Made by a program: the position numbers and the translations under genes
The notes under the pieces: generated by a model
The model's input: the letters and a program-made list of their open reading frames with translations, nothing else
What the model was told of the DNA's origin: nothing
The model's database searches: none
Assembly (NCBI RefSeq): GCF_000284115.1
Contig: NC_017080.1
Span: 1,530,001 to 1,562,000, forward strand
Origin: Phycisphaera mikurensis NBRC 102666
GTDB taxonomy: Bacteria; Planctomycetota; Phycisphaerae; Phycisphaerales; Phycisphaeraceae
Direction: 5' to 3'
DNA: 32,000 nucleotides
Shown: one piece after another, positions 2,415 to 21,896 of the stretch
How positions within the stretch are numbered: the stretch's first letter is position 1
Layout: every line of letters begins with the position of its first letter

Positions 2415-2658
2415 AGCGCGTTCCGGAGAACCCTGAGGCGTTTCCGCACGCTCGCCAGGTTTGGAACGCGCAGGACGCGGAGCCGGGATCCGCCGCAGCC
2501 GCGACGCCGCGCGGTGGAGCGTTACCGCACGGCGGCCGGGTTGGTGCCGGTGGCTGCAAGCTCCGCGTGCTCTGCGGCCTCCGCGGTCCTGCCCGGGTGG
2601 ACCCACCAAGAGCCTCCGGCGCCCACGCATGAGGTTCGTCCGGGACGCGTACGGGCCG

Positions 2659-2709: not shown

Positions 2710-3489
2710 TCAGCCGACGCGGCGGCGTCGCCCGCCGAGCAGCGTGAGACCCGCGGCGGCGAGCAGGGCGGTGGCCGGTTCGGGGACCGGCGCCGAGAAG
2801 CGCAGGGCGTCGAGGTCCGCGAGGGTGCCGTCGAAGACGTTGCTGTCGACGCCGCCGGTGTTGATGCCGGGGAGGTCGCGGCGGTCGGTGTACTGGTGGA
2901 AGAGCCAGCCCTGCGGCCAGCCGCGGATGTCGGTGGGGTTCAGATTCGGGTTGCGGGTGTAGTTGGCGACCCAGAGCTCGGTCTGCAGCACCGACGCGTC
3001 GAGGAAGTCCTCGGCGTAGAACTCGCTCGCGTACACGATCGGCCGCACGCCGGTGCGGCTCTCGACGCGGTCGAGGAAGCGGTCGCTCCACGAGGTCAGG
3101 AACGACCGCCCGGCGCTCTGGAACACCTCCATGTCGAGGACCGGCGGGAGGTAGCCCTCGCCCATCGCGAAACCGGCCGTGTCCACGAAGTAGTCGGCCT
3201 CGTTGAGCGGATCGTTGGATCCGCCGGTGTCGGGGCGGGCGAAGTGGTACACGCCGATGGGCAGGTCGACGCGGTTCGCCTCCGACACGTTGCGGAAGAG
3301 CTTCGCGTCGCGGAACCCGACCCCCTCGGTCGCCTTGAGGAACGCGAAGTCGACGTTGGGCTGAGCCTGCACCGTGTCCCAGTCGACGTCGCCCTGGAAG
3401 TTGGAGACGTCGATGCCCAGGAGCCGCGCGGAGGCGCCCGGGGCCAGGAGCAGCGGGACGGCGAGGATCGGGAGGCGGCGTCGCGTCAT
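2710..3489 (-). CDS. GH25 muramidase (lysozyme) with signal peptide and C-terminal PEP-CTERM sorting domain
   Basis: GH25 motifs are present: GIDVSNFQGDVDWDTV, FAFLKATEG, PPVLDMEVF (D-x-E). The N-terminal signal is MTRRRLPILAVPLLLAPGASA. The C-terminus is VPEPATALLAAAGLTLLGGRRRRVG (PEP, TM helix, Arg cluster). Confidence 0.85.
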   Translation of the reverse strand: MTRRRLPILAVPLLLAPGASARLLGIDVSNFQGDVDWDTVQAQPNVDFAFLKATEGVGFRDAKLFRNVSEANRVDLPIGVYHFARPDTGGSNDPLNEADYFVDTAGFAMGEGYLPPVLDMEVFQSAGRSFLTSWSDRFLDRVESRTGVRPIVYASEFYAEDFLDASVLQTELWVANYTRNPNLNPTDIRGWPQGWLFHQYTDRRDLPGINTGGVDSNVFDGTLADLDALRFSAPVPEPATALLAAAGLTLLGGRRRRVG

Positions 3490-4719: not shown

Positions 4720-5634
4720 ATGAGAAAGATCACCACCCCCGCCGCCGCTCTGCTGCTCGCCGCCGCCCCGGCCGCTCTCGCCGCCCCCGGCGACATCCTG
4801 TTCCAGGACGACTTCGAAAGCGGTTCCATCGCGAGCTACACGGTGGAGGCGCTGAGCACCTTCGACACCGGCGACGCCGCCACGTACGGCTTCGACTACG
4901 GCAGCTTCGGCGTCCCCGGCGTCTCCGGCAACGGGCTGCTGCTGGAGACCGACGACGCGCTGACCGTGTTCGTCAACGGCCTGAGCGTCTCGACGCCGAT
5001 CTCCATCAAGTTCGACGCCATCGCCTCGGCGGTGAGCGGCGGCTCGACGGAGGCCCTGACGGCCGGCGTCGCCAACGCGCTCCTCCCCTTCGACATCGAC
5101 CTCAGCCCGAGCGACCTCAGCGAGTCGGCGGCCTCCAACGGGCTCTTCGTGGGCGCGCTGACCGACTCCGACACGGCGGGCAGCGGCGACTACGGCGTGT
5201 ACGACAGCCTCGGCGGCGCGGTGCCGACGGCCCTGTCCTTCATGGACGCGGCGGGCCTCACGGACACGGGCATCGGCTTCGGCAACGCCGCGGTCCTTCC
5301 CGAGATCCCCGGCCAGTCGTCGGCCGGCGTGCTCGACGGCCGCTCGGCGGAGTTCGAGATCCTGGTCGACGGGGCCCGTCTGCAGTGGTTCATCAACGGC
5401 ACGCTGATCACCGACGTGACCGCCAGCGCCGCGCCCACGGGCACCGTGGGCATCGGCATCTCGGATCCGTTCCCCGGCTTCAACAACGGCACCGTCGGCC
5501 AGGGCACCGGCACCGCCTTCGCGATCGACAACCTGCTGATCACCGAAACCGCCGCCATCCCCGAGCCCACGACGCTGGGTGTCGCCGCCGCGGGCCTCGC
5601 CCTGCTGGCCGGCCGCCGCCGCCGCGTCGCCTGA
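4720..5634 (+). CDS. Secreted PEP-CTERM protein, probably a concanavalin/LamG-like jelly-roll domain
   Basis: Signal peptide MRKITTPAAALLLAAAPAALAAPG. The mature start GDILFQDDFESGS and the end GTAFAIDNLLITE resemble LamG/DUF1080-type folds. The C-terminus is IPEPTTLGVAAAGLALLAGRRRRVA (PEP-CTERM). An intrinsic terminator follows. Confidence 0.8.
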   Translation: MRKITTPAAALLLAAAPAALAAPGDILFQDDFESGSIASYTVEALSTFDTGDAATYGFDYGSFGVPGVSGNGLLLETDDALTVFVNGLSVSTPISIKFDAIASAVSGGSTEALTAGVANALLPFDIDLSPSDLSESAASNGLFVGALTDSDTAGSGDYGVYDSLGGAVPTALSFMDAAGLTDTGIGFGNAAVLPEIPGQSSAGVLDGRSAEFEILVDGARLQWFINGTLITDVTASAAPTGTVGIGISDPFPGFNNGTVGQGTGTAFAIDNLLITETAAIPEPTTLGVAAAGLALLAGRRRRVA

Positions 5635-5660
5635 TCGGCCCGGCGGATTCTGACGGAGAA

Positions 5661-5701
5661 GAAAAAGAGGCCGCGGACTCATCAGGGTCGGCGGCCTTTT
5701 C
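5661..5701. terminator. Intrinsic (potentially bidirectional) terminator
   Basis: The sequence is an A-run (GAAAAAG), the stem arm AGGCCGCGGAC, an 8-nt loop, the stem arm GTCGGCGGCCT, then TTTT. The stem is 11 bp with one mismatch. It lies 27 nt after the stop at 5634. Confidence 0.6.
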
Positions 5702-5715
5702 GCACGGACGTAGGG

Positions 5716-5881
5716 ATGACCCGCCGTGGCAGCCATGAAGGGCGAAGCCTGTGCGGGAGCGGGGCGTGGCCTTCGGCCACCAGGCTGCCACGGCGTGTCA
5801 GCCCTACGGGCGAGGCTCGTGCGCGTGGTGTGGCCTTCGGCCACCGGGCTGCTATGGCGTCTCCGCCCTGCGGGAGCGGGT
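5716..5881. repeat. Tandem GC-rich intergenic repeats (family Y), two ~60-bp units plus a partial unit
   Basis: Unit 5766-5815 is GTGGCCTTCGGCCACCAGGCTGCCACGGCGTGTCAGCCCTACGGGCGAGG. Unit 5831-5880 is GTGGCCTTCGGCCACCGGGCTGCTATGGCGTCTCCGCCCTGCGGGAGCGGG, about 85% identical by eye. Each unit has the mini-hairpin GTGGCC-TTCG-GGCCAC. 5721-5734 (CCGCCGTGGCAGCC) is complementary to 5784-5796. Confidence 0.75.
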
Positions 5882-6921
5882 CACTCGCCGAGGAGCTTCT
5901 CAACCCCCAGCCGGACCCGCTCCCAGTCGAAGGCCGGGCCGGGGTCGACTTTGTCGGGATCGAGGTGCCAGTGGGCGACCAGGCCGGAGAAGTCTTTCCA
6001 GTCCTGCTCGCTGAGCTCCTGCCGATCGGCTTTGCCGTCCGCGCCGCGGGGGTAGTCGTTGGGGAGCTTGGGGAAGAGCTCGGTGAGGGTCGCGGTGAGG
6101 TGGATCAGCGCCGTGTATTGGTCGTCGGTGAGGTCGAACTGGACGAGGTCGCGGTCGTGGATGATCCCGGTGACGGGGCCGTCGCCGGAGGGGCGGTAGA
6201 CGCCCTCGGGGTCGAGGTGGCCCAGCGGGCGGTCGTCGGGGAGGACGATCCGCCAGCCGCGGCCGTCGCGGGCGTACCACTTCTCGAGCACCGAGGTGTC
6301 GTCGGGCGGGTAGGCGCCGATGTTGGCGATCTCGATGCCGATCGAGCGGCTGTTGGCCTGTGCGGCGTGCCAGGCGCGCTCGGCGACGTCGAGGGTCTGG
6401 TAGATCATCCCGTCGGCGTCGAGCATGAACTGCACGGAGAGGCCGCGGTGGTCGTGCAGCACCTCGAAGCAGTACGCGCTGGTGCCGCACACGTCGTAGT
6501 GCATGACGAACTGGTCGACGACGGTGCCCAGCTGCTCCAGCGTCCAGCCGTCGCGGATCGCTTCGCGCTCCTCCTCGGAGAGGTCGTCCCGGAAGCCGAA
6601 GCGGTCGACCCGCTGGTTGTACCGGGCGGCGGGCACGCCCGACTCGGGCGTCCAGCGGGCGTTCTCCGGGCCCTGGAAGCGGAGGTTCACGTCGTAGCCG
6701 TTGTAGCCGCCGTCGTCGAACCAGAGCTTGACGGGCGTGCCGGTGTGGAAGAGGCGGCCCGCGACGACGATCTCGTCGCCGGTGCGGCTGAGCTCGGTGC
6801 CGGGCGCGGCCCGGCCGGGCTGGGCGTGGGCGTGGTCGCGGTGCGCCTCCCCCCCCGCGGCGGGCGCGGCGAGGCAGGCGGCGAGGAGCAGGGCGGCGGG
6901 CGCGTGGGGGGTGGGATGCAT
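5881..6921 (-). CDS. N-acetylmuramoyl-L-alanine amidase (Amidase_2/PGRP fold), secreted
   Basis: ATG at 6921 gives a 346-aa product with signal MHPTPHAPAALLLAACLAAPAAG. Amidase_2-like motifs are FVMHYDVCGTS, ERAWHAAQANSRSIGIEIANIG and LVAHWHLDP. The rest of the 813-aa track ORF is antisense to dacB and rejected. Confidence 0.8.
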   Translation of the reverse strand: MHPTPHAPAALLLAACLAAPAAGGEAHRDHAHAQPGRAAPGTELSRTGDEIVVAGRLFHTGTPVKLWFDDGGYNGYDVNLRFQGPENARWTPESGVPAARYNQRVDRFGFRDDLSEEEREAIRDGWTLEQLGTVVDQFVMHYDVCGTSAYCFEVLHDHRGLSVQFMLDADGMIYQTLDVAERAWHAAQANSRSIGIEIANIGAYPPDDTSVLEKWYARDGRGWRIVLPDDRPLGHLDPEGVYRPSGDGPVTGIIHDRDLVQFDLTDDQYTALIHLTATLTELFPKLPNDYPRGADGKADRQELSEQDWKDFSGLVAHWHLDPDKVDPGPAFDWERVRLGVEKLLGE

Positions 6922-6955
6922 CGCGTTGGGGGGGTGGGGTGGGGAGCCGGCCCCA

Positions 6956-6969
6956 AAATTACATAATCT
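6956..6969. promoter_or_regulatory. AT-rich island with back-to-back -10-like hexamers (bidirectional promoter candidate)
   Basis: AAAATTACATAATCTT is the only AT-rich stretch in the 54-bp gap between the divergent amidase and dacB genes. Plus-strand TAATCT (6964-6969) ends 6 nt before the dacB ATG. Minus-strand TAATTT (6961-6956) lies ~35 nt before the amidase ATG. Confidence 0.45.
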
Positions 6970-6975
6970 TCCCGG

Positions 6976-8454
6976 ATGATCCGCCTCGCCGCCGCTCTTG
7001 CCGCTCTGGTCGCCGGGAACGCGTCGGGCGAGCTGCAGCGGGAGGTCCGGGAGCTGATCGCGTCCGCCGCCCTCGGCGACGCGGTGGCGGGGGTGGTCGT
7101 CGCGGAGCTGACGCCCGGGGGATCCGAGGTGCGGGTCGACCTCAACGGCGACCTCGCCCTGGGCCCCGCGTCGAACATGAAGCTGGTGACCACGGCGGCG
7201 GCGCTGGACCTGCTCGGCGAGGGCTTCGCCTTCGAGACGACGCTCTCGCTGCTGCCGGCGGGAGACCGCGCACCCTCGCTGCTCGTGCGGGGCTCCGGTG
7301 ACCCGGGCTTCGGCGATCCGCCGCTGCTCGAGGCCGCCGGCGAGACGCCGGCGGGCGTGGTCGCCCGCTGGGTGGAGGCGGTGCGGGCGACGGGCCGGAC
7401 CCGCTTCGCGACGCTGCGCATGGACGACGCGATCTTCGACGCGCAGCGGGTGCACCCGGACTGGCCGGCGGACCAGCAGGCGTACTGGTACTGCGCGGAG
7501 GTGGCGGGGATCAACTTCAACGACAACTGCATCGACGTGCGGCGCGAGCCGGGGCCGGAGCCGGGGGCTCCGGCGGTGCTGCACTTCTTTCCTTCGTTCC
7601 CGGGCCTGGCGGCGCAGGCGACGAACGAGACGGTCACCGGCGAGTCCGACACGTTCGACTTCTCCCGCCCCGCCGATCGCAACGCGTTCAGCTTCACCGG
7701 CGTCGTGGACGGGCCCGGCCTCGACTACGCGGCCGTTCACGACCCCGCGCTGTTCTTCGGCCGGCACCTCGCCCACGAGCTGGCGGAGGCGGGCGTCGGG
7801 GTGGGCGAGGTGGTGCGGGGCGGCGCCCCCGCGGGTGTCGTGCCCGAGAGCCTCGGCGTGGTGAGGACGACGCTGGCCGGCGTGCTCGACCGGACCAACC
7901 GCAACTCGCAGAACCTCTTCGCCGAGGCGCTGCTCAAGCGGATGGGCCGCGAGGCGGCCGGGGAGCCGGGCTCCTTCGCCAACGGCTCGGCGGCGGTGCG
8001 GTCCTACCTCGCCCGGGTGCTCCCGGAGGCGGACCTCTCCGGGGTGGTGGTGGCCGACGGCTCGGGGCTGGCGCGGACGAACCGGCTGACCGCGCGGCTG
8101 CTGGTGGGGCTGCTCGACCGCGTCACGCGGCTGCCGCCGGCGGAGGCGCGGACCTACCGGGAGTCGCTCGCGGAGCTGGGCCGGAGCGGGACGCTGCGCC
8201 ACCGCGGCGAGGGTGTGCGGACGGCCCGGGTGTTCGCGAAGACGGGCACGATCTCGGGCGTCTCGGCGCTCTCGGGCTACCTGGTGACGCCGGCGACGGA
8301 AGAGGCGGCGGAGCGGGTCCACGCGTTCTCAATGCTGTTCAACGGATTCGCCCCGCCGGTGAGCACCCGGGACGTGCGGCGGGTGCAGGACGAGGTGCTG
8401 GCGCTGCTGGACCGCCGCCTGGCCCCGGCGGCGACGCCGGCGGAGTCGCCGTGA
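6976..8454 (+). CDS. dacB: D-alanyl-D-alanine carboxypeptidase/endopeptidase (PBP4, peptidase S13)
   Basis: SxxK is present in GPASNMKLVTTAAAL and KTG in VFAKTGTISGVSALSGY. DGSGLARTNRLT, NRNSQNLFAEALLK and the N-terminal signal are typical of the PBP4 family. Confidence 0.85.
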   Translation: MIRLAAALAALVAGNASGELQREVRELIASAALGDAVAGVVVAELTPGGSEVRVDLNGDLALGPASNMKLVTTAAALDLLGEGFAFETTLSLLPAGDRAPSLLVRGSGDPGFGDPPLLEAAGETPAGVVARWVEAVRATGRTRFATLRMDDAIFDAQRVHPDWPADQQAYWYCAEVAGINFNDNCIDVRREPGPEPGAPAVLHFFPSFPGLAAQATNETVTGESDTFDFSRPADRNAFSFTGVVDGPGLDYAAVHDPALFFGRHLAHELAEAGVGVGEVVRGGAPAGVVPESLGVVRTTLAGVLDRTNRNSQNLFAEALLKRMGREAAGEPGSFANGSAAVRSYLARVLPEADLSGVVVADGSGLARTNRLTARLLVGLLDRVTRLPPAEARTYRESLAELGRSGTLRHRGEGVRTARVFAKTGTISGVSALSGYLVTPATEEAAERVHAFSMLFNGFAPPVSTRDVRRVQDEVLALLDRRLAPAATPAESP

Positions 8455-9572
8455 GGCGGCGTGCGCTGCTCGGCCGCGCGGCGGCGTTGGCGGCCGCCGC
8501 GACGCTGCCCCCCGGCTGCCGGACCGCGACGCTGCGCGGCGGTCCGCCGGTGCCGCGTGGCCTGCACCCCGCCCCGTCGCTGGACGAGCCGGTGTTCCTG
8601 GGCAGCCGGGTGGGGCTGCGGCCGTGGCGGGCCGGCGGCTTCCGGGTCGAGGCGGACCGCCGCGGCACCAAGCCGCTGGTGCACAACTACGGGCACGGCG
8701 GGGCGGGCTGGACGCTGGCCTGGGGGTCGGCGGTGGAGGCGGCGGACCTGCTGGGCACGCCGCGCGCCGTGACGGTGCTGGGCGCGGGCATCGTGGGGCT
8801 GACCACGGCGGCCGTGCTGGCCGAGCGTGGCTTCCGCGTCGCGGTGGCGGCGGCCGAACGCGGCACCGGGGCGACGGCCTCCGCGGCGGCGGGGGCGCAG
8901 TTCGCGCCGGCGGGGGTGGTGCCGCCGGCGGGGCCCGCGGGGGCGGCCCGGCTCGGGCGGATGCTGCTCGAGGGGCACCGGCGCTTCACGCGGACGCTGC
9001 CGTCGCTGGCGGGCGCGGTGCTGCCGCGGGTGAACTACAGCACGCGTCCGCCGGAGCGGATCGCGCTGGGCCGGCTGCCGGTTTCGATCAGCCGCGCCCG
9101 GCCGGTGAGCCCGATGCCGATCCGGCGGCGGGGCGGGCCGCTGGACGGCTGGGCCTACGACACGCTGTGCATCGAGCCGCCGGCTTACCTCCACGGGCTG
9201 CGCGGCCACCTGCAGGGGCAGGGCGTCCGCTTCGAGCACCGGCGGGTGCGGGGGCGGCTGGACCTCGGCGAGATCCCCGGCGAGGCGGTGGTGCTGTGCC
9301 TGGGCGTTGGCGCGCGCGAGGCCGCCGGGGACCCCGCCGTGGTCCCGATCCGCGGGCAGATCGAGTGCCTGGCCCCGCCGCCCGGCGGCGGGCTGCGGTA
9401 CATGCTCAGCGATCGCGGCTACGCCTTCGGCCGGCGCGACTGCACGGTGCTCGGCGGGACGTACGACCGGGGCGACGAGGGGCTGGCGTTCCGCGCGGCG
9501 GACCGGGCGGCGACGCTGGCGAAGGCGCGCCGCTTCTTCGGCACGCCCGACGCCGCCTCGCTGCCGCGCTGA
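8451..9572 (+). CDS. FAD-dependent D-amino-acid-oxidase-like protein, circularly permuted, with a Tat-like signal
   Basis: The GTG at 8451 overlaps the dacB stop (GTGA). MRRRALLGRAAALAAAATLPPGC looks like a twin-arginine signal. The DAAO C-terminal signature VGLRPWR...LVHNYGHGGAGWTLAWGSA comes before the N-terminal Rossmann motif VTVLGAGIVGLTTA. Later DAAO-like blocks are VVPIRGQIECL and CTVLGGTYD. Confidence 0.8.
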   Translation: MRRRALLGRAAALAAAATLPPGCRTATLRGGPPVPRGLHPAPSLDEPVFLGSRVGLRPWRAGGFRVEADRRGTKPLVHNYGHGGAGWTLAWGSAVEAADLLGTPRAVTVLGAGIVGLTTAAVLAERGFRVAVAAAERGTGATASAAAGAQFAPAGVVPPAGPAGAARLGRMLLEGHRRFTRTLPSLAGAVLPRVNYSTRPPERIALGRLPVSISRARPVSPMPIRRRGGPLDGWAYDTLCIEPPAYLHGLRGHLQGQGVRFEHRRVRGRLDLGEIPGEAVVLCLGVGAREAAGDPAVVPIRGQIECLAPPPGGGLRYMLSDRGYAFGRRDCTVLGGTYDRGDEGLAFRAADRAATLAKARRFFGTPDAASLPR

Positions 9573-9734
9573 GCCCCGGCCGCGATGAAGCGGCCGGGGT
9601 CCCGGCCCTCGGCGACCGCCGGCGGCGCGGACCGGCCGGCGCCGCTTCCGCGTCATGCCGCGGGCAGCCACGTCGCGGACGTCCGGAGGGCGTGGCTCCG
9701 TGATCCGATGGGATGCTCTAATCTTCTAGAACAG

Positions 9735-11120
9735 ATGATCGGAGCGCAAGATTCGAAACCGGAATCCGGGGACTGGAACTGGGAACGGCAGCCCGCCGCG
9801 GCGACGCTGCTCGCCGGCTGGCTGGAGGCGGCGCAGGCGGCGAACCCGTGGCTCCGCGACTTCGCGGAGCGCCTCCACGCCGAGAGCGGGAACCGCCTGG
9901 CGGACCTCGTCGACCTCTGGTCGCGGCCGGACACGCCCGACGCGCGGCTCGCCATCGAGCGGGCGGGGTACCGCCCGCTGGAAGCCGCCGCCGGCGGCCA
10001 CCTCTTCCACCACCCCCGGGGGATGTTCCCCCGCGTGCTGCTGCACCCGCGCGCGGGCGTCGCCGTGGACCTCCGGGTGGAGAGCTGCGCCGACTTCGGC
10101 TCCGCCCACGGCCTGAGCGCCGCGATCGAGGGCGTCCCGGGCGCGCCGCTGCGGCGGCTGGCGGTCTACACCGCGGGCGGCGTCGCCGTGCGGGCGGCGC
10201 GCCGGCGGGGCAGCCTGGCGGCCGTGATCACCGGGGGCCCCTGCGAGCCGACGCTGACCGACCAGGCCCTCGTGCTCGAGTCCTTCCGCGGCCGGCCCCG
10301 GCGGTTCGCCGACGAGGCGGCCGGCTTCGACGAGCTCGCCGAGCGGGTGGACGCCGCCGTCGCGCGCGTGGGTCGCGACGTCGCGTGCTCGCTGTTCTTC
10401 GCCGCGGAGCGGGATTTCTGGGAGAGGCGGAACGCCGCCGCCCGCTGGCAGGCGAGCCGGCAGGCTGCGCTGGGCATCGGGTGGGCGAACCACGACCACC
10501 ACACCTACCGCTCGTCGCGGGTCCACTTCCACCGCCTGGTCGCGCTCTTCGAGAAGCTCGGCTTCCACTGCCGCGAGCGCTTCTCGCCGGGCGCCGCCGC
10601 CGGCTGGGGGGCACAGGTGATGGAGCAGCCGGTGTGCGGCATCGTCACCTTCAACGACGTCGACCTCTCGCCGGCGGAGCTGCGGACCGACTTCGCCCAC
10701 ACGCCGCTCGGGGAGCGCGACACGCTGGCGACGGTGGGCCTGTGGTGCGGGCTCCACGGCGAGTCCATCCTCCAAGCCGGCATGCACCACCTCGAGTGCA
10801 CCTTCGACTTCGGCGAGCTGCGCGAGCAGATGGCCTCCGGCGGGATCGAGACGATGCGGCCCTTCACCGACTTCGACCACCTCAAGCAGGCCTTCACGCG
10901 CGGCGAGCTCTGGCAGGTGGAGGAGGGGCGGCTGAACCGGCTGGTCGACGCGGGGAGGATCAGCGGGGCCGAGGCGGAGGCCTTCCGCCGCGACGGCGCG
11001 ATCGGCAGCCACCTGGAGAACCTCGAGCGGAACGAGGGTTTCAAGGGCTTCAACCAGCGCGGCGTCACCGAGGTGATCCACGCGACCGACCCGCGGCGCC
11101 AGCCGTCCTCGCCCGCGTAG
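9735..11120 (+). CDS. Conserved hypothetical protein, possibly a VOC/HPPD-like (DUF1338-type) metalloenzyme
   Basis: The long ORF has strong GC3 bias. I prefer the ATG at 9735 because the preceding 60 nt are unusually AT-rich and contain TAATCT and TTCTAGAA; in-frame alternatives are 9585 and 9708. Motifs NHDHHTYRS (H-x-T-x-R), MHHLECTFD and SHLENLERNEGFKGFNQRGV resemble VOC-superfamily metal-ligand motifs. This assignment is weak. Confidence 0.6.
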   Translation: MIGAQDSKPESGDWNWERQPAAATLLAGWLEAAQAANPWLRDFAERLHAESGNRLADLVDLWSRPDTPDARLAIERAGYRPLEAAAGGHLFHHPRGMFPRVLLHPRAGVAVDLRVESCADFGSAHGLSAAIEGVPGAPLRRLAVYTAGGVAVRAARRRGSLAAVITGGPCEPTLTDQALVLESFRGRPRRFADEAAGFDELAERVDAAVARVGRDVACSLFFAAERDFWERRNAAARWQASRQAALGIGWANHDHHTYRSSRVHFHRLVALFEKLGFHCRERFSPGAAAGWGAQVMEQPVCGIVTFNDVDLSPAELRTDFAHTPLGERDTLATVGLWCGLHGESILQAGMHHLECTFDFGELREQMASGGIETMRPFTDFDHLKQAFTRGELWQVEEGRLNRLVDAGRISGAEAEAFRRDGAIGSHLENLERNEGFKGFNQRGVTEVIHATDPRRQPSSPA

Positions 11121-11166
11121 CCCCGGCGGCCGCCGGTCGCCCCTCCGCCGCCCGACCCCGCCCGCC

Positions 11167-12225
11167 ATGCGTCGCCCCGCACCGCTCCCGATCCCGCTCC
11201 TGACCGCCCTCGCCGCCGCCCTGGCGGCCGGGTGCTCCTCCGCTCCGCCGCCGCCGGATCCCGGGCTCACGCGCACGCCCGCGACCGCGAGTGCGCCCGC
11301 GCCCGCCGACGCCGCGACGCTGGCCGAGCGACTCGCGTACGGGTCCCGGACCCGCACGAAGCTGCCGCCGGCGTACCTGCACGAGCGTCTGCGGGAGCGG
11401 GCGGCGACGCCGGCGGTGGACGCGGCCTTCGAGCGCGTCCGCGCGGACGACACGCCGGCCAACCGGTCGGCGCTGCTGCACGCCCTCGAGCGGGGCTTCG
11501 TCCACGCCGAGACGACCTCCTCGCTGGACCTGCTCGGCCCGGAGCTCGGGCAGCGCTTCCGGTCTTTCAACTGGCACGACGACGACTACCCCGGCGGGCC
11601 GGTGGGCCCGAACGAGCACTGGGCCGGGACGCTCGCCGACGCGCTCGACGGCGTCAGCCCCGAGCGGCGGGCGAACCGCTCCGCGGTGGCGGCTCTCCGG
11701 CGGGAGGAGGCGACGGAGCCGATCTGGGAACGCCTGCTCGCGGCTTGGCGGCCGATCCCCGGCGAGGAGGGCCACCGGCTGAACCGGCACGCCGTCGGCC
11801 CGTACCTCGCGATGCGGGAGGCCGCGGCGGCCGACGGCGTCGAGCTGGTGATCGTCTCGGCCCACCGCGACCCCCGGCGTGCCCGGGCCAACGCCGCCAG
11901 GGCCGCGAATCCCTTCGCCGTCGCCAGCTTCTCCTCGCACGCGCTCGGGCTCGCCATCGACCTCGCGCTCCCGATTCCCGGCGGCCCGGCCGGCGATGCG
12001 GCGGCGTTCCCGCTGTCCACCCGGCCGATGGCCCGGGTGGTCGACATGCGGCGGTCGCCGGTGCACAAGTGGATGCACCTGCACGCCAGCGGCTTCGGCT
12101 GGTACCCGTACCAGCACGAGCCCTGGCACTGGGAGTACAACCCGCCGGGCTTCCGGGCGGTGCTTCTTGAGGATCTCGGGGGCGGGCCGTCGCCGCGTGG
12201 AGCGCCACCGGCGTCGCCCGGTTGA
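11167..12225 (+). CDS. Lipoprotein with VanY/peptidase M15B D-Ala-D-Ala carboxypeptidase domain
   Basis: Lipobox LAAGC follows MRRPAPLPIPLLTALAAALAAGC. M15 motifs are VIVSAHRD, SSHALGLAIDL (SxHxxGxAxD) and GFGWYPYQHEPWHWEY. Confidence 0.8.
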   Translation: MRRPAPLPIPLLTALAAALAAGCSSAPPPPDPGLTRTPATASAPAPADAATLAERLAYGSRTRTKLPPAYLHERLRERAATPAVDAAFERVRADDTPANRSALLHALERGFVHAETTSSLDLLGPELGQRFRSFNWHDDDYPGGPVGPNEHWAGTLADALDGVSPERRANRSAVAALRREEATEPIWERLLAAWRPIPGEEGHRLNRHAVGPYLAMREAAAADGVELVIVSAHRDPRRARANAARAANPFAVASFSSHALGLAIDLALPIPGGPAGDAAAFPLSTRPMARVVDMRRSPVHKWMHLHASGFGWYPYQHEPWHWEYNPPGFRAVLLEDLGGGPSPRGAPPASPG

Positions 12226-12246
12226 GCGACCCGGCGGCGTCGCTCA
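12223..12246. terminator. Hairpin spanning both stop codons of convergent genes
   Basis: TGAGCGAC (12223-12230) pairs with GTCGCTCA (12239-12246) across an 8-nt loop. The TGA of the VanY-like gene pairs with the TCA (the TGA on the other strand) of the TIM-barrel gene. There is no T-tract. Confidence 0.35.
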
Positions 12247-13062
12247 CGCGGGGCGCATGAGCGGGCGCAGCTCCGCCGCGCCGGCACGCAGGTCGTCCAC
12301 GCGCGCGTCGCCGGCCTCCCGCTCCAGGATCAGCTCGCCGTCGTAGCCGCCGCCCCGCAGGATCTCGAGGAAGGCCGCCCAGTCGACCGCCCCCTCGCCG
12401 ACGGGCACCTCGGTGCCCCAGGTCCCCGGTTCGGCGGCCGGCACGGCGTCCTTCGCGTGCGCCTGCTTCACCCGCGGCAGCAGCGTCCGCAGCGCCGCGA
12501 GCGGGTCGCCCATGCCGTAGAGGATCATGTTCGCCGGGTCGAAGTTGAGGAAGAGGTTCGGCCGGTCGGCCGCGTCGAGGAAGCGGTCGAGCGTGGCGGC
12601 GTCCTCCTGCCCGGTCTCCAGCAGCAGGTCGAGCCCGCGGTCGGCGAAGAGGTCCGCCACCGCGCCGGTGCGTCGCGTCAGCGGGTGGTCCGCGGCGTCG
12701 GCGGCGTCGTGGGGCAGGAAGCCGGCGTGCAGGCTGACCGAGGGGAGGCCCAGCCCGGCGGCGAGGTCGGCGACGCGGGCGGCGGTGTCGCGGTTGTGCT
12801 CCCAGTGCTCGTCGGGCAGCAGCCCGCCGGTGACGCGGATCGTGTCGAGGGTGCTGTAGTCCTCGCCGCGGGTCTGCATCATCCCCGAGACGAGCTCGAC
12901 GCCCCCCTCGCGGAGGGCGGCGGGGGCGTCGGCCCACGCGGGATCCTCGGCGACGTCGTCCAGCCGCAGCTGGACGCGCGGGATCCCGGTCGCCCGGACC
13001 TTCTCGACGAGGTCGGCGGGGGAGGTCGCCTGGAGGCTCCAGCTGCAGATGGCGAGGCGCAT
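12244..13062 (-). CDS. Sugar phosphate isomerase/epimerase (xylose-isomerase-like TIM barrel)
   Basis: ATG at 13062 gives MRLAICSWSL..., 272 aa. Family-typical blocks are VSLHAGF, LLLETGQE, FLNFDPANMILYG and DGELILERE. The upstream part of the track ORF (to 13560) is rejected. Confidence 0.8.
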   Translation of the reverse strand: MRLAICSWSLQATSPADLVEKVRATGIPRVQLRLDDVAEDPAWADAPAALREGGVELVSGMMQTRGEDYSTLDTIRVTGGLLPDEHWEHNRDTAARVADLAAGLGLPSVSLHAGFLPHDAADAADHPLTRRTGAVADLFADRGLDLLLETGQEDAATLDRFLDAADRPNLFLNFDPANMILYGMGDPLAALRTLLPRVKQAHAKDAVPAAEPGTWGTEVPVGEGAVDWAAFLEILRGGGYDGELILEREAGDARVDDLRAGAAELRPLMRPA

Positions 13063-13068
13063 CGTGCC

Positions 13069-13074
13069 GTTATA
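13069..13074 (-). promoter_or_regulatory. -10-like hexamer TATAAC, 6 nt upstream of the ATG at 13062 (leaderless candidate)
   Basis: The minus strand reads CTTCTATAAC-GGCACG-ATG. Confidence 0.45.
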
Positions 13075-13284
13075 GAAGGTTTCCGCCGGAGGCCCTCGCC
13101 GGGCCGGCTCCGGCCCGGTGGCGTGCTTGTGCCCGGCGGCGACGACGCCGGGCTCCGGCTGCGTGGGGCGCGGCTTCCGCCGCCGGACCCGGCCGTCTCG
13201 GCCACTTCCGCGACAGCCTTTGAACCGGCGAACCCCGCTCTCCACCGGCTCCGCCAGGCGGCCGGAGCGTCCACCTCCCCCGCG

Positions 13285-13290
13285 TACCCT
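13285..13290 (+). promoter_or_regulatory. -10-like hexamer TACCCT, 7 nt upstream of the dnaB GTG (leaderless candidate)
   Basis: The plus strand reads CGCGTACCCT-CCGCCTC-GTG. Confidence 0.4.
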
Positions 13291-13297
13291 CCGCCTC

Positions 13298-14779
13298 GTG
13301 GTCGACTTCGGAAACAGCGAGAGCGGGGGCGGCGGCGACCTCCGGGCGTTCGGCGGGGCGGCCCCGGGGCCGTCGAAGCAGGGCGACGGCTGGAAGGACC
13401 GCAAGAAGAAGCCGCGGACGGTCGACCTCAGCCGCCTGCTGGATCGCCTCCCGCCGCAGGCCATCGAGGCGGAGATGGCGCTCCTGGGCTCGATGATCCT
13501 CGACTGGCGGACCGTCGGCGACGTGGTGCAGGTGCTCGTCGACGCGGAGGTGTTCCACAAGCCCGAGCACCAGTCGATCTACGCCGTGCTCGTCGAGCTC
13601 TACGACAAGCACCAGTCGATCGACATGGTGCAGCTGCATGCCAAGCTGTCCGACCGCGGCGTCCTCGAGCAGGTCGGCGGGCTGGACTACCTCGTCGAGC
13701 TCGGCGAGGCCGTGCCCTCGGCCAGCGGAGCCGTCCGCTACGCGGAGATCGTCCGCGACAAGGCGCTGCTGCGGAAGATGATCCACACGGCGGGCACGAT
13801 CCTCGAGGACTGCCACGGCTGCGACGAGCCGGTGGTGGAGCTGTTCGACAAGATCGAGAGCACCATCTTCGAGATCGCCGAGAAGCGCACGCAGGACGGC
13901 ACGGCCGCGCTGTCGGTCCTGCTGCAGGAGACCTTCGACAAGCTCGAGGCGCAGGACGGCCAGGTCATCACCGGCGTCGAAACCGGCTTCAAAGACCTCG
14001 ACGAGATGACCAACGGCCTCCAGCCCGGCGAGCTGATCATCGTCGCGGCGCGCCCGAGCATGGGCAAGACGGCCTTCGCGCTCAACGTCTCCGAGCACAT
14101 CGGGGCGGTGGCGGGGCGGCCGGTGGGCGTGTTCTCGCTGGAGATGAGCAAGCAGCAGCTGGCCCAGCGGCTGCTGTGCTCGCGGAGCCAGGTCAACTCG
14201 CACCGGCTGCGGCGGAACATGCTCTCGCGGGAGGACTTCTCGAAGCTGAGCCACGCCGTGGGCGAGCTGTCCGAGGCGCCGATCTACATCGACGACACGG
14301 CCGGCCTGACGCTGATGGGCCTGCGGGCGAAGGCTCGGCGGATGAAGCAGCGCTACGGCATCGAGGCGCTGATGGTCGACTACCTGCAGCTGATGAGCAA
14401 CCCCTCGACGAAGGACGGCCGGCAGAACGAGGTGTCCGCGATCTCGCGGGGCGTGAAGGCGCTCGCGCGGGAGCTGGAGTGCCCGATCATCTGCCTGTCG
14501 CAGCTGAACCGGGCGGCGGAGCAGCGCGAGGGGCACCGGCCGCGGATGAGCGACCTGCGCGAGTCCGGCTCCATCGAGCAGGACGCCGACGTCATCATGA
14601 TGCTGCACCGGGAGGACTACTACCACCGTGGCGATCCCGAGCACGTCGACAACAACGAGGCGGAGGTCATCGTCACCAAGCAGCGCAACGGACCGACCGG
14701 CACGGTCAAGCTGATGTTCGACGGCGGGACGACCCGCTTCAAGAACCTGGCGCTCGGCGGCTCGTCGCCGTCGTATTGA
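13298..14779 (+). CDS. dnaB: Replicative DNA helicase DnaB
   Basis: LPPQAIEAEMALLGSMIL is the DnaB N-terminal domain. Walker A is ARPSMGKTAF and Walker B is LMVDYLQLM. SQLNRAAEQREGHRPRMSDLRESGSIEQDADVIMMLHRE is also present. The start was set at the GTG at 13298; the 13118 ATG adds a junk-like Arg/Pro N-terminus. Confidence 0.9.
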   Translation: MVDFGNSESGGGGDLRAFGGAAPGPSKQGDGWKDRKKKPRTVDLSRLLDRLPPQAIEAEMALLGSMILDWRTVGDVVQVLVDAEVFHKPEHQSIYAVLVELYDKHQSIDMVQLHAKLSDRGVLEQVGGLDYLVELGEAVPSASGAVRYAEIVRDKALLRKMIHTAGTILEDCHGCDEPVVELFDKIESTIFEIAEKRTQDGTAALSVLLQETFDKLEAQDGQVITGVETGFKDLDEMTNGLQPGELIIVAARPSMGKTAFALNVSEHIGAVAGRPVGVFSLEMSKQQLAQRLLCSRSQVNSHRLRRNMLSREDFSKLSHAVGELSEAPIYIDDTAGLTLMGLRAKARRMKQRYGIEALMVDYLQLMSNPSTKDGRQNEVSAISRGVKALARELECPIICLSQLNRAAEQREGHRPRMSDLRESGSIEQDADVIMMLHREDYYHRGDPEHVDNNEAEVIVTKQRNGPTGTVKLMFDGGTTRFKNLALGGSSPSY

Positions 14780-15920: not shown

Positions 15921-15926
15921 GCGGGC

Positions 15927-15932
15927 AAGCTA
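15927..15932 (-). promoter_or_regulatory. -10-like hexamer TAGCTT, 6 nt upstream of the queA GTG (leaderless candidate)
   Basis: The minus strand reads CCGTAGCTT-GCCCGC-GTG. Confidence 0.45.
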
Positions 15933-16056
15933 CGGCGGCCTCCGCCGCGGGCGCCCGCCGATCTACGATCGGCCACGCACGCCGCCCGCACCCCCTGGAG
16001 CCTGTCCCTTGGGTTTCTCTCGATCGAAGAGCCGACCCCGCGAGACGCGGGAATCG

Positions 16057-16245
16057 ATGATCCGCGACACGAGCCGCTTCCTCACCTGGGCGATGGCCGC
16101 CGACCGCGGCCTCGCCCGGATCCCCACCCGGCGGTCGGACGATGGCGGGTTCTCGGCGCTGATGCGGCGGCCGGCGGCCCGGCTGATGGCCTCGCACTGG
16201 TGGCACCGCGCGGTGGATCGAGCGGGCGAGGCGTTTGGCCGATGA
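16057..16245 (+). CDS. Possible small protein (62 aa), hypothetical
   Basis: The ORF (ATG to TGA) lies in the 407-bp queA-divergent gap. Its product is MIRDTSRFLTWAMAADRGLARIPTRRSDDGGFSALMRRPAARLMASHWWHRAVDRAGEAFGR. By eye, 57 of 62 codons end in G or C, matching the coding bias of neighbouring genes. I recognise no homology and no clear RBS. Confidence 0.35.
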   Translation: MIRDTSRFLTWAMAADRGLARIPTRRSDDGGFSALMRRPAARLMASHWWHRAVDRAGEAFGR

Positions 16246-16327
16246 CCCCGGCCGAAACGCGGGCCGGGACGCGGGCAGGCTCTACGCTGCCGACCCGCCC
16301 GCCGCACCCGCCTTCCCGAGCGCCCGC

Positions 16328-16999: not shown

Positions 17000-17013
17000 G
17001 GCGGCGGCGGCTC

Positions 17014-17034: not shown

Positions 17035-17081
17035 CCGAATCCGCCGGTTCCGATCGCTCGCAAGCCGGGGAGGCTGCCCGC

Positions 17082-21890: not shown

Positions 21891-21896
21891 CCGCGC

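What the first reader, a model, noticed from the sequence alone, without database searches (positions are those of the whole stretch)
8451..9572. Circularly permuted, Tat-signal D-amino-acid-oxidase-like flavoprotein translationally coupled to dacB
In canonical DAAO the GxGxxG dinucleotide-binding motif is at the extreme N-terminus. The ...GFRPxR...HNYGHGGxG...WG... segment forms the last ~60 residues. Here the order is swapped. Residues ~50-105 read SRVGLRPWRAGGFRVEADRRGTKPLVHNYGHGGAGWTLAWGSAVEAADLLG. They run directly into AVTVLGAGIVGLTTAAVLAERGF. The protein then ends (...VVPIRGQIECL...CTVLGGTYDRGDEGLAF...ARRFFGTP) about where the GFRPxR segment would normally begin. The new N-terminus MRRRALLGRAAALAAAATLPPGC looks like a twin-arginine signal, which would export a folded FAD enzyme, possibly with a Cys lipid anchor. 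Its GTG overlaps the dacB stop codon (GTGA at 8451-8454). PBP4 releases free D-Ala outside the cytoplasm. A co-translated exported D-amino-acid oxidase would therefore be a periplasmic D-Ala sink producing pyruvate, NH3 and H2O2. I know of no characterised permuted or periplasmic DAAO.
Basis: partly seen in the sequence, partly recalled or inferred. Interest (0 to 1): 0.8.

Follow-up and report, generated by a model that had tools for sequence, protein, structure and literature searches.

The report
Circularly permuted, exported D-amino-acid oxidase homologue
This Phycisphaera mikurensis gene encodes a D-amino-acid-oxidase-type flavoprotein whose last ~60 residues have moved to the front behind an export signal, and it belongs to a large family with this layout, found in many bacterial phyla, that I could not find described in the literature searched; its pairing with the cell-wall gene dacB is peculiar to this genome.

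Summary
ORF 8451-9572 (+, 373 aa; 100% identical to a P. mikurensis "FAD-dependent oxidoreductase") is a real circular permutant of the DAAO/DDO fold. Residues 42-102 match human DAAO 268-331, and residues 106-351 match DAAO/DDO residues 3-259. An in-silico re-permuted sequence aligns collinearly to Pfam DAO and to yeast DAAO. The AlphaFold model is confident, and its best structural matches are DAAO and DDO.

It is not an assembly artefact. 194 of 269 collected relatives share the same order and the same breakpoint, across Sphingomonadales, Caulobacterales, Acidobacteriota, Phycisphaerales, Longimicrobiales, Gammaproteobacteria, Bacteroidota and others. About 89% of full-length members carry an RR signal and about 59% a lipobox-like Cys. 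In 67 of 121 members a Cys pair brackets the cut site, which suggests a disulfide.

The GTG start overlaps the dacB stop codon (GTGA). The dacB linkage is not conserved: 0 of 80 loci have it, and neither do the two closest relatives. No conserved neighbour exists.

The best reading is a Tat-exported, possibly lipid-anchored, periplasmic D-amino-acid oxidase or dehydrogenase. In this genome it was recruited into a cluster of D-Ala-releasing cell-wall enzymes. Activity and localisation are untested. No paper describing a permuted or periplasmic DAAO was found. It is a new variant of a known kind.

The parts
8451..9572 (+). Gene for the circularly permuted DAAO-family flavoprotein (373 aa, GTG start, TGA stop)
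   Evidence: ORF list and sequence. 100% identical to P. mikurensis 'FAD-dependent oxidoreductase' P0001. Pfam DAO E=2.1e-26 in two stretches.
8451..8519 (+). Predicted signal peptide, residues 1-23: MRRRALLGRAAALAAAATLPPG-C. It has a twin arginine, an Ala-rich uncharged stretch (A10-C23) and a non-canonical lipobox-like LPPGC
   Evidence: R3/R4 align with the RR that is at least 90% conserved in 73 family members. Of 157 full-length members, 139 have RR and 125 have RR followed by at least 13 uncharged residues. Pfam TAT_signal hits 21 of 103 family N-termini but not this one. The AF2 model puts a helix at 3-17 and then low-confidence coil.
8574..8756 (+). Transplanted 'C-terminal' module, residues 42-102. 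It comprises the strand with GLRPWR (R57 = human DAAO Arg283), a beta-hairpin, HNYGHGGAG (G84 = Gly313) and the following helix
   Evidence: phmmer: residues 42-102 = human DAAO 268-331. Pfam DAO profile positions 298-353. R57, P58, R60 and H78-G84, G86 are invariant in 73 sequences. pLDDT 93-98.
8751..8765 (+). Short linker (LGTPR, residues 101-105) that joins the old C-terminal helix to the old N-terminal strand beta1
   Evidence: Alignment A1. pLDDT about 98 across the junction.
8766..9548 (+). Main body, residues 106-366. It corresponds to canonical DAAO residues about 2-267: the Rossmann beta-alpha-beta with GAGIVG (111-116, nt 8781-8798), the substrate/interface domain, and Y317/Y324
   Evidence: Pfam DAO profile 2-298. 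DDO/DAAO alignment 3-259. Foldseek top hits are DAAO/DDO with about 280 aligned columns.
8451..8454 (+). GTGA start/stop overlap between dacB and the oxidase gene. An SD-like GGAG at 8442-8445 lies 5 nt upstream
   Evidence: Read directly from the sequence. No earlier start codon exists in this frame.
6976..8454 (+). dacB / PBP4 (DD-carboxypeptidase/endopeptidase) with a Sec-type signal
   Evidence: Pfam Peptidase_S13 E=3.9e-68; TIGR00666 E=3.1e-48.
9735..11120 (+). Same-strand downstream gene, 461 aa as annotated (longest ORF from 9585). It belongs to a conserved family without a domain assignment, has a predicted HPPD/hydroxymandelate-synthase-like VOC fold, and has no obvious signal peptide
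   Evidence: No Pfam, NCBIfam or PDB sequence hit. More than 5400 homologues. AF2 pLDDT 89.2. Foldseek HPPD E=3e-8 but TM only about 0.3.
11167..12225 (+). Same-strand VanY-like (M15) D-Ala-D-Ala carboxypeptidase with a lipoprotein-type N-terminus (…LAAGC)
   Evidence: Pfam VanY E=1.2e-6, 28.8 bits against a cut-off of 25. Sequence.
5881..6957 (-). Divergently transcribed N-acetylmuramoyl-L-alanine amidase (Amidase_2) with the lipobox LLLAAC
   Evidence: Pfam Amidase_2 E=2.9e-16. Sequence.

Best explanation
The gene encodes a natural circular permutant of the D-amino-acid/D-aspartate oxidase fold. The canonical last ~60 residues are the GxRPxR strand carrying the carboxylate-binding Arg, followed by the HNYGHGGxG FAD-contacting helix. 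Here that module is encoded first and joins the Rossmann beta1-GxGxxG through a 5-residue linker. The chain ends where the canonical enzyme would enter the GxRPxR strand.

In front of the relocated module sits a twin-arginine-type signal peptide. The most likely mechanism, in order:
1. The protein binds FAD and folds in the cytoplasm.
2. It is exported folded by Tat.
3. The signal is removed, possibly with lipidation of Cys23.
4. In the periplasm the enzyme oxidatively deaminates free D-amino acids to 2-oxo acids and ammonium. The flavin is reoxidised by O2 (giving H2O2) or by an unidentified acceptor.

In P. mikurensis the gene has been inserted between two D-Ala-releasing cell-wall enzymes, PBP4 and a VanY-like carboxypeptidase, and overlaps the dacB stop codon. 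Here it probably consumes D-Ala released during peptidoglycan trimming. Across the family it is a stand-alone gene, which suggests a general role in scavenging or detoxifying periplasmic D-amino acids.

Shown: the permutation, the DAAO-type fold and active-site residues, the family-wide signal peptides, and the local gene overlap. Inferred: Tat use, lipidation, substrate, electron acceptor and physiological role.
For: Permutation:
- HMM and pairwise alignments appear in swapped order.
- The re-permuted sequence becomes collinear.
- BLASTP of permuted P0042 against the canonical-order relative P0267 gives HSPs 121-357<->23-267 and 37-96<->278-337.

Fold:
- AF2 gives pLDDT 88.5 and pTM 0.86, with pLDDT about 98 across the new junction.
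- The Foldseek PDB top 30 are all DAAO/DDO, E about 5e-12, with about 280 columns aligned. That is what a sequential aligner should return for a permutant.

Active site:
- R57 (=Arg283) and G84 (=Gly313) are invariant.
- Y324 (position of Tyr228) and Y317 are at least 90% conserved.
- The TTS...AGG...P region is conserved.

Not an artefact: 194 of 269 collected homologues are permuted with the same breakpoint. 80 genomic loci come from at least 8 phyla.

Export:
- RR is at least 90% conserved and aligns with R3R4 of this protein.
- 139 of 157 members have RR, and 125 of 157 also have at least 13 uncharged residues after it.
- 92 of 157 have a Cys in a lipobox-like context (LPGC, LPAC, LSGC, LAGC).
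- Pfam TAT_signal is the only family recurring in the N-termini, in 21 of 103.
- 30 of 34 canonical-order relatives start directly at the Rossmann motif.
- A Cys 17-19 residues before GLRP co-occurs with a Cys about 3 residues from the C-terminus: 67 both, 50 neither, 4 N-terminal only, 0 C-terminal only. This implies a disulfide across the cut site and therefore an oxidising compartment.

Local context:
- GTGA overlap with dacB, then gaps of 12 nt (to the longest downstream ORF) and 46 nt to the next two same-strand genes.
- Neighbours are VanY-like, Amidase_2 and a GH25 muramidase.
- The 69% identical relative is followed by NamZ, an exo-muramidase.
Against: - No activity, cofactor or localisation data exist.
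- Pfam TAT_signal does not score this protein's own N-terminus. Its n-region is a single residue and an Arg interrupts the hydrophobic region.
- Its lipobox has Pro at -3 and -2 (LPPGC), outside the usual [LVI][ASTVI][GAS]C. Only 36 of 157 family members have a strict lipobox.
- Some family members have no Cys at all, or carry Sec-type signals, which is odd for a protein with a non-covalent FAD.
- dacB linkage is absent from all 80 other loci and from the two nearest relatives.
- The neighbour survey shows no enrichment of cell-wall or amino-acid genes.
- Producing H2O2 in the periplasm is costly, so the physiological acceptor may not be O2.
- I did not check whether P. mikurensis has Tat genes.
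Confidence: 0.6

Rival explanations
1. The enzyme exists to work with PBP4 as a translationally coupled, co-exported D-Ala sink that turns D-Ala released from peptidoglycan into pyruvate, NH3 and H2O2. The dacB pairing is then the functional core of the system.
For: - GTGA overlap and an SD-like GGAG.
- A same-strand cluster of dacB, the oxidase, an HPPD-like gene and a VanY-like gene, with gaps of -4, 12 and 46 nt.
- No intrinsic terminator is detected in the cluster.
- Both flanking peptidases release D-Ala, which is established enzymology of PBP4 and VanY.
- An Amidase_2 and a GH25 muramidase lie nearby.
Against: - 0 of 80 homologous loci have a PBP4 homologue within 10 kb.
- The 63% identical relative sits between unrelated genes, and the 69% relative is next to NamZ, not dacB.
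- Other Phycisphaerales loci have HtrA and PanB as neighbours instead.
- The family as a whole has no conserved partner.
- The association is therefore recent and limited to this lineage.
Confidence: 0.25
2. The protein is exported and binds flavin, but it is not a D-amino-acid oxidase in vivo. It could act on another amine or 2-hydroxy-acid substrate such as glycine, sarcosine, opines or D-2-hydroxy acids. Alternatively it works as a dehydrogenase that passes electrons to a periplasmic cytochrome or to membrane quinone through its lipid anchor, as DadA does on the cytoplasmic face.
For: - The DAO superfamily is functionally diverse. Weaker matches include MnmC, CmiS2, iminodiacetate oxidase and glycine oxidase.
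- The GxRPxR and YGHGGxG motifs also occur in some glycine oxidases (PMC9844085).
- The permuted family has its own near-invariant residues that are absent from mammalian DAAO, namely P327, R328 and D330 after Y324.
- Lipid anchoring in about 59% of members would place the flavin near the membrane.
Against: - Sequence matches to DAAO/DDO are 10-20 orders of magnitude better than those to glycine oxidase or LAAO.
- The residues that hold the alpha-carboxylate and position the substrate in DAAO (Arg283, Tyr228, Gly313) are conserved.
- No cytochrome or other redox partner gene is conserved nearby.
Confidence: 0.3
3. The protein is cytoplasmic. The RR-containing N-terminus is not a working signal, either because the real start is downstream or because the peptide is a membrane tether or has no function. 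The permutation would then be a neutral rearrangement of an ordinary intracellular DAAO.
For: - Pfam TAT_signal gives no hit on this N-terminus.
- The n-region is very short, and Arg9 sits inside the hydrophobic stretch.
- In-frame alternative starts exist at codons 13 (TTG), 34 and 48 (GTG).
Against: - The N-terminus aligns residue for residue with family signals of the type M-x-RR-x-F-L-G...L-P-x-C.
- RR, the hydrophobic stretch and the Cys are conserved across phyla, although they lie outside the enzyme fold.
- The co-varying Cys pair argues for an oxidising compartment.
- Canonical-order relatives lack any such extension.
Confidence: 0.1
4. The order is a sequencing, assembly or annotation artefact: a frameshift, a chimeric join or a pseudogene.
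For: None was found. The gene's GC content (79-80%) is somewhat above that of its flanks (71-77%).
Against: - The ORF is continuous at 373 codons.
- The sequence is identical in the complete 3.80-Mb chromosome record.
- About 190 homologues from independent isolates and metagenomes have the same order and breakpoint.
- The AF2 model is confident across the junction.
Confidence: 0.01

Closest known systems
Eukaryotic D-amino-acid oxidase and D-aspartate oxidase (human DAAO 2du8, pig DAAO 1kif, R. gracilis DAAO 1c0i, human DDO 6rkf)
   Same: - They are the best sequence matches in PDB (E 1e-22 to 1e-15) and the best structural matches.
- They share the Rossmann GxGxxG, the TTS/AAG region, and the GxRPxR Arg (Arg283), the Tyr228 position and HNYGHGGxG with Gly313.
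   Different: - The order of the chain differs. The 268-331 module comes first and the 1-267 body second, joined by a 5-residue linker.
- This protein has an N-terminal RR signal, whereas the eukaryotic enzymes carry a C-terminal peroxisomal signal (from my own knowledge).
- The loop between the two active-site Tyr residues is 3 residues longer.
- P327, R328 and D330 are conserved here but not in the eukaryotic enzymes.
Characterised bacterial DAAOs (Streptomyces coelicolor, Rubrobacter xylanophilus, Arthrobacter protophormiae). All are Actinobacteria according to PMC9844085.
   Same: - They share the bacterial signature motifs GxRPxR and YGHGGxG (PMC9844085).
- Streptomyces homologues are 56-70% identical to this protein over the relocated module and about 32-35% over the body.
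   Different: - They have the canonical order and start directly at the Rossmann motif with no signal.
- They are restricted to Actinobacteria in the literature.
- The permuted clade is mostly from Gram-negative phyla (Proteobacteria, Acidobacteriota, Planctomycetota, Gemmatimonadota, Bacteroidota), with some Eremiobacterota and Actinomycetota MAGs.
P0267, an uncharacterised canonical-order, signal-less metagenomic homologue
   Same: It is the nearest canonical-order sequence in my set. It is 37% identical over the body and 43% over the module to a permuted member, and it shows the uninterrupted junction (…QFIANAGRAMGFAPPKIAPERYVRAIAGLRPFR…) exactly where the permuted proteins are cut.
   Different: It is not permuted and has no signal peptide. 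The tree placing it next to the permuted clade is weakly supported.
DadA-type D-amino-acid dehydrogenase (NCBIfam PRK00711)
   Same: It belongs to the same DAO superfamily, oxidises D-amino acids in bacteria and is membrane-associated (from my own knowledge).
   Different: - Only the N-terminal Rossmann part matches (residues 107-176, E=5e-11, far below the family cut-off).
- DadA is cytoplasmic-face and quinone-linked, and is neither exported nor permuted.
Tat-exported cofactor enzymes and Tat lipoproteins in general
   Same: The N-termini follow the pattern RR-x-F-L plus a mildly hydrophobic Ala/Gly-rich stretch, often followed by Cys. The passenger carries a non-covalent cofactor that must be loaded before export.
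   Different: I found no DAAO-family member reported as a Tat substrate. This protein's own motif (MRRRALLG) and lipobox (LPPGC) are weak versions of the consensus.

Membership tests
DAAO/DDO family (Pfam DAO PF01266, D-amino-acid oxidase branch) | Significant match to the family profile over the whole domain | tested here: met
   PF01266 E=2.1e-26, 93.7 bits against a cut-off of 27.9. Together the two stretches cover profile positions 2-353.
DAAO/DDO family (Pfam DAO PF01266, D-amino-acid oxidase branch) | Rossmann beta-alpha-beta with GxGxxG for the ADP part of FAD | tested here: met
   GAGIVG at residues 111-116. G111, G113 and G116 are invariant in 73 sequences. In the model, strand 106-110, helix 114-125 and strand 129-134. 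The motif is internal here, not N-terminal.
DAAO/DDO family (Pfam DAO PF01266, D-amino-acid oxidase branch) | Substrate-carboxylate Arg (human Arg283), Tyr228 and Gly313 in HNYGHGGxG | tested here: met
   R57 and G84 align directly with Arg283 and Gly313 and are invariant. Y324 lies 10 residues before the LGG motif, as Tyr228 does, and is at least 90% conserved. The Tyr assignment rests on spacing, not on a printed alignment.
DAAO/DDO family (Pfam DAO PF01266, D-amino-acid oxidase branch) | Canonical linear order: GxGxxG at the N-terminus, GxRPxR and HNYGHGG in the last ~70 residues | tested here: not met
   The order is reversed: HNYGHGG at 78, GxGxxG at 111. This is the point of the finding. 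The protein has the same fold and is homologous, but its topology differs.
DAAO/DDO family (Pfam DAO PF01266, D-amino-acid oxidase branch) | Two-domain DAAO fold | tested here: met
   AF2 pLDDT 88.5, pTM 0.86. Foldseek top hits are human DAAO, human DDO and pig DAAO, E 5e-12 to 2e-11, TM (target-normalised) 0.60-0.63 over about 280 columns. A non-sequential superposition could not be run.
DAAO/DDO family (Pfam DAO PF01266, D-amino-acid oxidase branch) | FAD-dependent oxidative deamination of D-amino acids with O2 | not testable with these tools
   Needs expression and assay.
Natural circular permutant (definition) | Two segments each homologous to the reference but in swapped order; re-joining the termini restores collinearity; the same breakpoint in relatives | tested here: met
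   73 sequences align end to end with this protein. 194 of 269 homologues are classed as permuted.
Twin-arginine (Tat) signal peptides | RR within an (S/T)-R-R-x-F-L-K-like motif in the n-region | tested here: inconclusive
   This protein has M-R-R-R-A-L-L-G. Its RR aligns with the family RR (at least 90% conserved). Pfam TAT_signal gives no hit for this protein, but it hits 21 of 103 homologue N-termini at E<=0.01, and one exceeds the gathering score.
Twin-arginine (Tat) signal peptides | Uncharged, weakly hydrophobic stretch of about 13 or more residues after RR | tested here: met
   A10-C23 (AAALAAAATLPPGC) is 14 uncharged residues. 125 of 157 family members meet the same rule (my own rule-based script, not TatP or SignalP).
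Twin-arginine (Tat) signal peptides | Tat translocase present in the organism; export abolished by RR->KK | not tested
   Only a 32-kb window was available, and no tat genes were seen among the ORFs scanned. The mutation test needs an experiment.
Bacterial lipoproteins | Lipobox [LVI][ASTVI][GAS]-C at the end of the signal | tested here: not met
   This protein has L-P-P-G-C, with Pro at -3 and -2. In the family, 92 of 157 have a Cys in a loose lipobox context but only 36 of 157 have a strict one. LPGC (29) and LPAC (13) are the most common forms. Lipidation is possible but unproven.

The most novel reading that the evidence does not exclude
A phylum-spanning clade of circularly permuted DAAO homologues is a previously unrecognised class of exported enzymes. 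They would be Tat-dependent, often lipid-anchored periplasmic D-amino-acid oxidases or dehydrogenases. In about half the members a disulfide would re-staple the permutation cut site. Many Gram-negative bacteria would then have a way to destroy or harvest free D-amino acids (released from cell wall or from the environment) before they enter the cytoplasm or are mis-incorporated into peptidoglycan. P. mikurensis would show the first operon-level link to D-Ala-releasing peptidases.
Probability: 0.45. Interest if true: 0.75.

Novelty: new variant of a known kind. Interest (0 to 1): 0.62.

Why it matters
Bacterial DAAOs are regarded as rare. A 2022 survey counts just over ten genes, all from Actinobacteria (PMC9844085). 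Bacterial D-amino-acid catabolism is usually ascribed to cytoplasmic-face DadA and to racemases.

If active, the permuted clade would extend DAAO-type enzymes to many Gram-negative phyla and would place D-amino-acid oxidation in the periplasm. That bears on four questions:
- recycling of D-Ala and D-Glu from peptidoglycan;
- resistance to non-canonical D-amino acids;
- use of D-amino acids in soil and marine organic matter;
- envelope H2O2 production.

For protein science, it is a clean natural example of a circular permutation in a two-domain flavoenzyme. The breakpoint is defined, a canonical-order relative is available, and an apparent compensatory disulfide is present. The family could also supply new scaffolds for DAAO biocatalysis and biosensors. 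Standard motif-position-based searches would miss these genes.

Tried and rejected
- **dacB linkage.** tblastn of PBP4, the VanY-like protein, Amidase_2 and the downstream protein against 80 homologous loci (+/-10 kb) gave no hit for any of them. Conserved linkage is rejected.
- **Neighbour clustering.** Unbiased clustering of neighbouring ORFs found only lineage-level synteny: HslV in Sphingomonadales, HtrA and PanB in Phycisphaerales.
- **Neighbour Pfam scans.** Scans of the longest upstream and downstream ORFs were heterogeneous. No partner gene emerged.
- **Single origin.** An NJ tree of re-permuted versus canonical sequences put 32 of 33 canonical sequences together, but bootstrap support for a permuted-free canonical split was only 14 of 50. 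A single origin rests on the shared breakpoint, not on the tree. An earlier tree script timed out, and one had a faulty split test.
- **Promoter and terminator scan.** Nothing was found in 5600-13800. This is uninformative at 75% GC.
- **Literature.** Searches for permuted, Tat or periplasmic DAAO found only unrelated uses, namely cpYFP sensors and DAAO as an assay reagent. One search was too broad to be useful.
- **Duplication remnant.** I looked for overlapping homology at the two termini by eye. The cut looks clean, so I make no claim about the permutation mechanism.

Full report
**What is there.** ORF 8451-9572 on the + strand encodes 373 residues and starts at the only available start codon of its frame, a GTG. 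The window is about 71-80% GC. The protein is 100% identical to a Phycisphaera mikurensis protein on a 3.80-Mb contig, named 'FAD-dependent oxidoreductase' or 'D-amino-acid oxidase' by automatic annotation. The GTG (8451-8453) overlaps the TGA (8452-8454) of the upstream gene 6976-8454. That gene is a clear PBP4/dacB (Peptidase_S13 E=3.9e-68; TIGR00666 E=3.1e-48). A GGAG sits 5 nt upstream of the GTG.

**The permutation is real.**
- Pfam DAO matches in two stretches. Residues 107-366 correspond to profile positions 2-298.
- Scanned on their own, the first 105 residues match profile positions 298-353 (residues 42-100; E=2.2e-6).
- Against PDB sequences, residues 42-102 align with human DAAO 268-331, and residues 106-351 with DAAO/DDO 3-259.
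- I cut the N-terminal piece off and pasted it behind the C-terminus. Pfam then gave one collinear hit over positions 2-353 (E=4.2e-27). R. gracilis DAAO aligned in a single stretch, 9-354.
- The AlphaFold2 model built on 73 homologues is confident (pLDDT 88.5, pTM 0.86). It reaches about 98 across the new junction between the old C-terminal helix (83-101) and the old first strand (106-110).
- The order of elements is the canonical DAAO order rotated: long strand with GLRPWR, hairpin, LVHNY strand, helix, then beta1, helix, beta2 of the Rossmann fold.
- The top 30 Foldseek hits in PDB are all DAAO or DDO (E about 5e-12). Only about 280 columns align, with TM 0.55-0.63. That is what a sequential aligner should give for a permutant.

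**Active site.** The residues that define DAAO chemistry are present.
- R57 aligns with Arg283 and G84 with Gly313 of human DAAO. Both are invariant in the family.
- Y324 occupies the Tyr228 position (same spacing to the LGG motif) and Y317 the Tyr224 region. Both are at least 90% conserved.
- Matches to glycine oxidase, L-amino-acid oxidases or DadA cover only the Rossmann part and are many orders of magnitude weaker.

**It is a family, not an accident.**
- The word-indexed search returned many proteins 30-45% identical over 85-97% of the query, which requires the same order.
- The exhaustive representative search found 3937 proteins at E<=1e-3. Most of the top 150 cluster representatives match in one stretch running from before residue 55 to beyond residue 340.
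- Classified by motif order, 194 of 269 collected proteins are permuted, 34 are canonical, and the rest are unclassified.
- 73 of them align end to end with the same breakpoint.
- Eighty genomic loci with the permuted form come from Sphingomonadales, Caulobacterales/Hyphomonadaceae, Acidobacteriota, Phycisphaerales, Longimicrobiales/Gemmatimonas, Gammaproteobacteria (Pseudohongiella, Paraglaciecola), Bacteroidota (Dyadobacter, Emticicia), Eremiobacterota, Myxococcota and others.
- A canonical-order, signal-less relative (P0267) shows the intact junction. BLASTP against a permuted member gives two HSPs in swapped order, 121-357<->23-267 and 37-96<->278-337.
- My NJ tree is too weakly supported to prove a single origin. 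The shared breakpoint makes a single origin the economical reading.

**Export signal.**
- In the family alignment the twin arginine is at least 90% conserved and aligns with R3R4 of this protein. The typical pattern is M-x-RR-x-F-L-G…L-P-G-C-A-T.
- Of 157 permuted proteins with a complete N-terminus, 139 have RR. 125 also have at least 13 uncharged residues after it. 92 have a Cys in a lipobox-like context, but only 36 in a strict one.
- Pfam TAT_signal is the only family that recurs when 103 N-termini are scanned (21 hits at E<=0.01). It does not score the P. mikurensis N-terminus itself.
- Thirty of 34 canonical-order relatives begin directly at the Rossmann motif.
- One canonical-order protein (P0205) does have an RR signal, so export does not require the permutation.
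- A few permuted members have Sec-like signals without RR.

**A probable disulfide.** Among 121 complete permuted proteins I looked for two cysteines: one 17-19 residues upstream of GLRP, and one about 3 residues from the C-terminus.

| Cys pattern | Proteins |
|---|---|
| Both | 67 |
| Neither | 50 |
| N-terminal only | 4 |
| C-terminal only | 0 |

Fisher's test gives p about 1e-29, not corrected for phylogeny. These two positions flank the permutation cut, where the chain is continuous in canonical enzymes. This looks like a disulfide that staples the new termini, and it points to an oxidising compartment. The P. mikurensis protein belongs to the 'neither' group.

**The dacB story.** In this genome the context is suggestive. 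Amidase_2 lies on the opposite strand. On the + strand come dacB, the oxidase, a conserved unknown gene and a VanY-like carboxypeptidase, separated by -4, 12 and 46 nt. A GH25 muramidase lies further upstream. PBP4 and VanY-type enzymes both release D-Ala, which is established enzymology. The linkage is not conserved, however.
- None of the 80 loci has a PBP4, VanY-like or amidase homologue within 10 kb.
- The 63% identical relative has unrelated neighbours.
- The 69% identical relative is followed by NamZ.
- Clustering and Pfam scans of neighbours show only lineage-level synteny.

The pairing is therefore a local recruitment. It fits a D-Ala-consuming role here but does not define the family.

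**Mechanism proposed.** FAD is loaded and the protein folds in the cytoplasm. Tat exports it. The signal is removed, possibly with lipidation at Cys23. In the periplasm the enzyme oxidises free D-amino acids to 2-oxo acids and ammonium, using O2 or another acceptor. Of this, only the fold, the motifs, the signal features and the gene overlap are shown. The rest is inference. My rough confidences are:

| Claim | Confidence |
|---|---|
| Permutation | >0.95 |
| Export of the family | ~0.85 |
| Export of this protein | ~0.7-0.75 |
| D-amino-acid substrate | ~0.55 |
| Specific PBP4-coupled D-Ala role | ~0.25 |

**Novelty.** Full-text searches for permuted, Tat-dependent or periplasmic DAAO found nothing relevant. 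A 2022 survey states that just over ten bacterial DAAO genes are known, all from Actinobacteria. It lists GxRPxR and YGHGGxG as bacterial signatures and does not mention permutation or signals (PMC9844085). A secretome study of Asaia bogorensis lists a 'D-amino acid oxidase' among released proteins (PMC12502724). I could not check whether it belongs to this family. I class the finding as a new variant of a known kind: the fold and chemistry are known, while the topology, the predicted compartment and the taxonomic range are new.

**Limits.**
- No dedicated signal-peptide predictor was available.
- I could not run a non-sequential structural superposition.
- I did not check whether the organism has Tat genes.
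- The phylogeny is weak.
- The literature library covers open-access papers only.

Noticed in passing
window 9735-11120 (+); longest ORF from 9585: The gene downstream of the oxidase is annotated 'hypothetical protein' (461 aa) and has no Pfam, NCBIfam or PDB sequence match. It nevertheless has more than 5400 homologues. The top 120 are 47-70% identical, mostly over more than 90% of the length, and the named ones are Planctomycetota. Invariant His/Glu-rich motifs include WANHDHHTYRSSR, MHHLECTFDF and GSHLENLERN. The AF2 model (pLDDT 89) matches 4-hydroxyphenylpyruvate dioxygenase and hydroxymandelate synthase by Foldseek (E 3e-8, but TM only about 0.3). This suggests an undescribed VOC-fold enzyme, possibly a 2-oxo-acid dioxygenase. 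That is intriguing next to an enzyme that makes 2-oxo acids, but it has no signal peptide and is not linked to the oxidase elsewhere.
   Followed up: partly
family of P0001 (alignment A1; proteins P0005, P0017, P0023 and others): Two cysteines co-vary: one 17-19 residues before GLRP and one about 3 residues from the C-terminus (67 both, 50 neither, 4 and 0 single). They bracket the permutation cut site and probably form a disulfide. Both are absent from the P. mikurensis protein.
   Followed up: partly
P0205 (350 aa) and P0267 (339 aa): P0205 has the canonical order but carries an RR-type signal (…SSRRAVLRTAGFAAAATALTSSAPAVG…) before the Rossmann motif. P0267 has the canonical order, no signal, and is the nearest canonical relative of the permuted clade. 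The two may mark steps on the route to the exported permutant.
   Followed up: partly
family N-termini listed: A minority of permuted members have classical Sec-type signals without RR (for example MVKKFLFVILIWHGAVFAQS and MRKIVLLFLVLSQLVYAP). This raises the question of how FAD would be loaded after Sec export.
   Followed up: no
P0178 (1042 aa, match at 698-1021), P0175 (620 aa), P0260 (627 aa, canonical order, match at 313-550): Some homologues are fused to long additional regions of unknown nature.
   Followed up: no
window 2710-3489 (-), 4720-5634 (+): Two proteins have PEP-CTERM sorting signals. One is a GH25 muramidase (E=1.6e-40). The other is an Ala/Gly/Ser-rich secreted protein. A lysozyme-type enzyme with a PEP-CTERM anchor is unusual.
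   Followed up: no
window 5881-6957 (-), 11167-12225 (+): The Amidase_2 (lipobox LLLAAC) and the VanY-like M15 peptidase (…ALAAGC) both look like lipoproteins. With PBP4 and GH25 they form a cell-wall-hydrolase-rich neighbourhood around the oxidase.
   Followed up: partly
L082:2007-3242 (contig with the 69% identical relative P0002): The closest relative's gene is followed by a NamZ-type exo-beta-N-acetylmuramidase (PF07075, PF20732). This is a second, independent association with peptidoglycan recycling in the Phycisphaera-like lineage.
   Followed up: no
window 8200-9600: GC content is 79-80% over the oxidase gene, against 71-77% in the flanking genes. The shift is mild. I did not analyse it for horizontal transfer.
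   Followed up: no
window 1407-2630 (-), 14946-16331 (+), 16435-17706 (-), 21639-24149 (-): Four long ORFs (406-835 aa) have no Pfam match at E<=1e-3. At this GC content I could not decide whether they are real genes.
   Followed up: no
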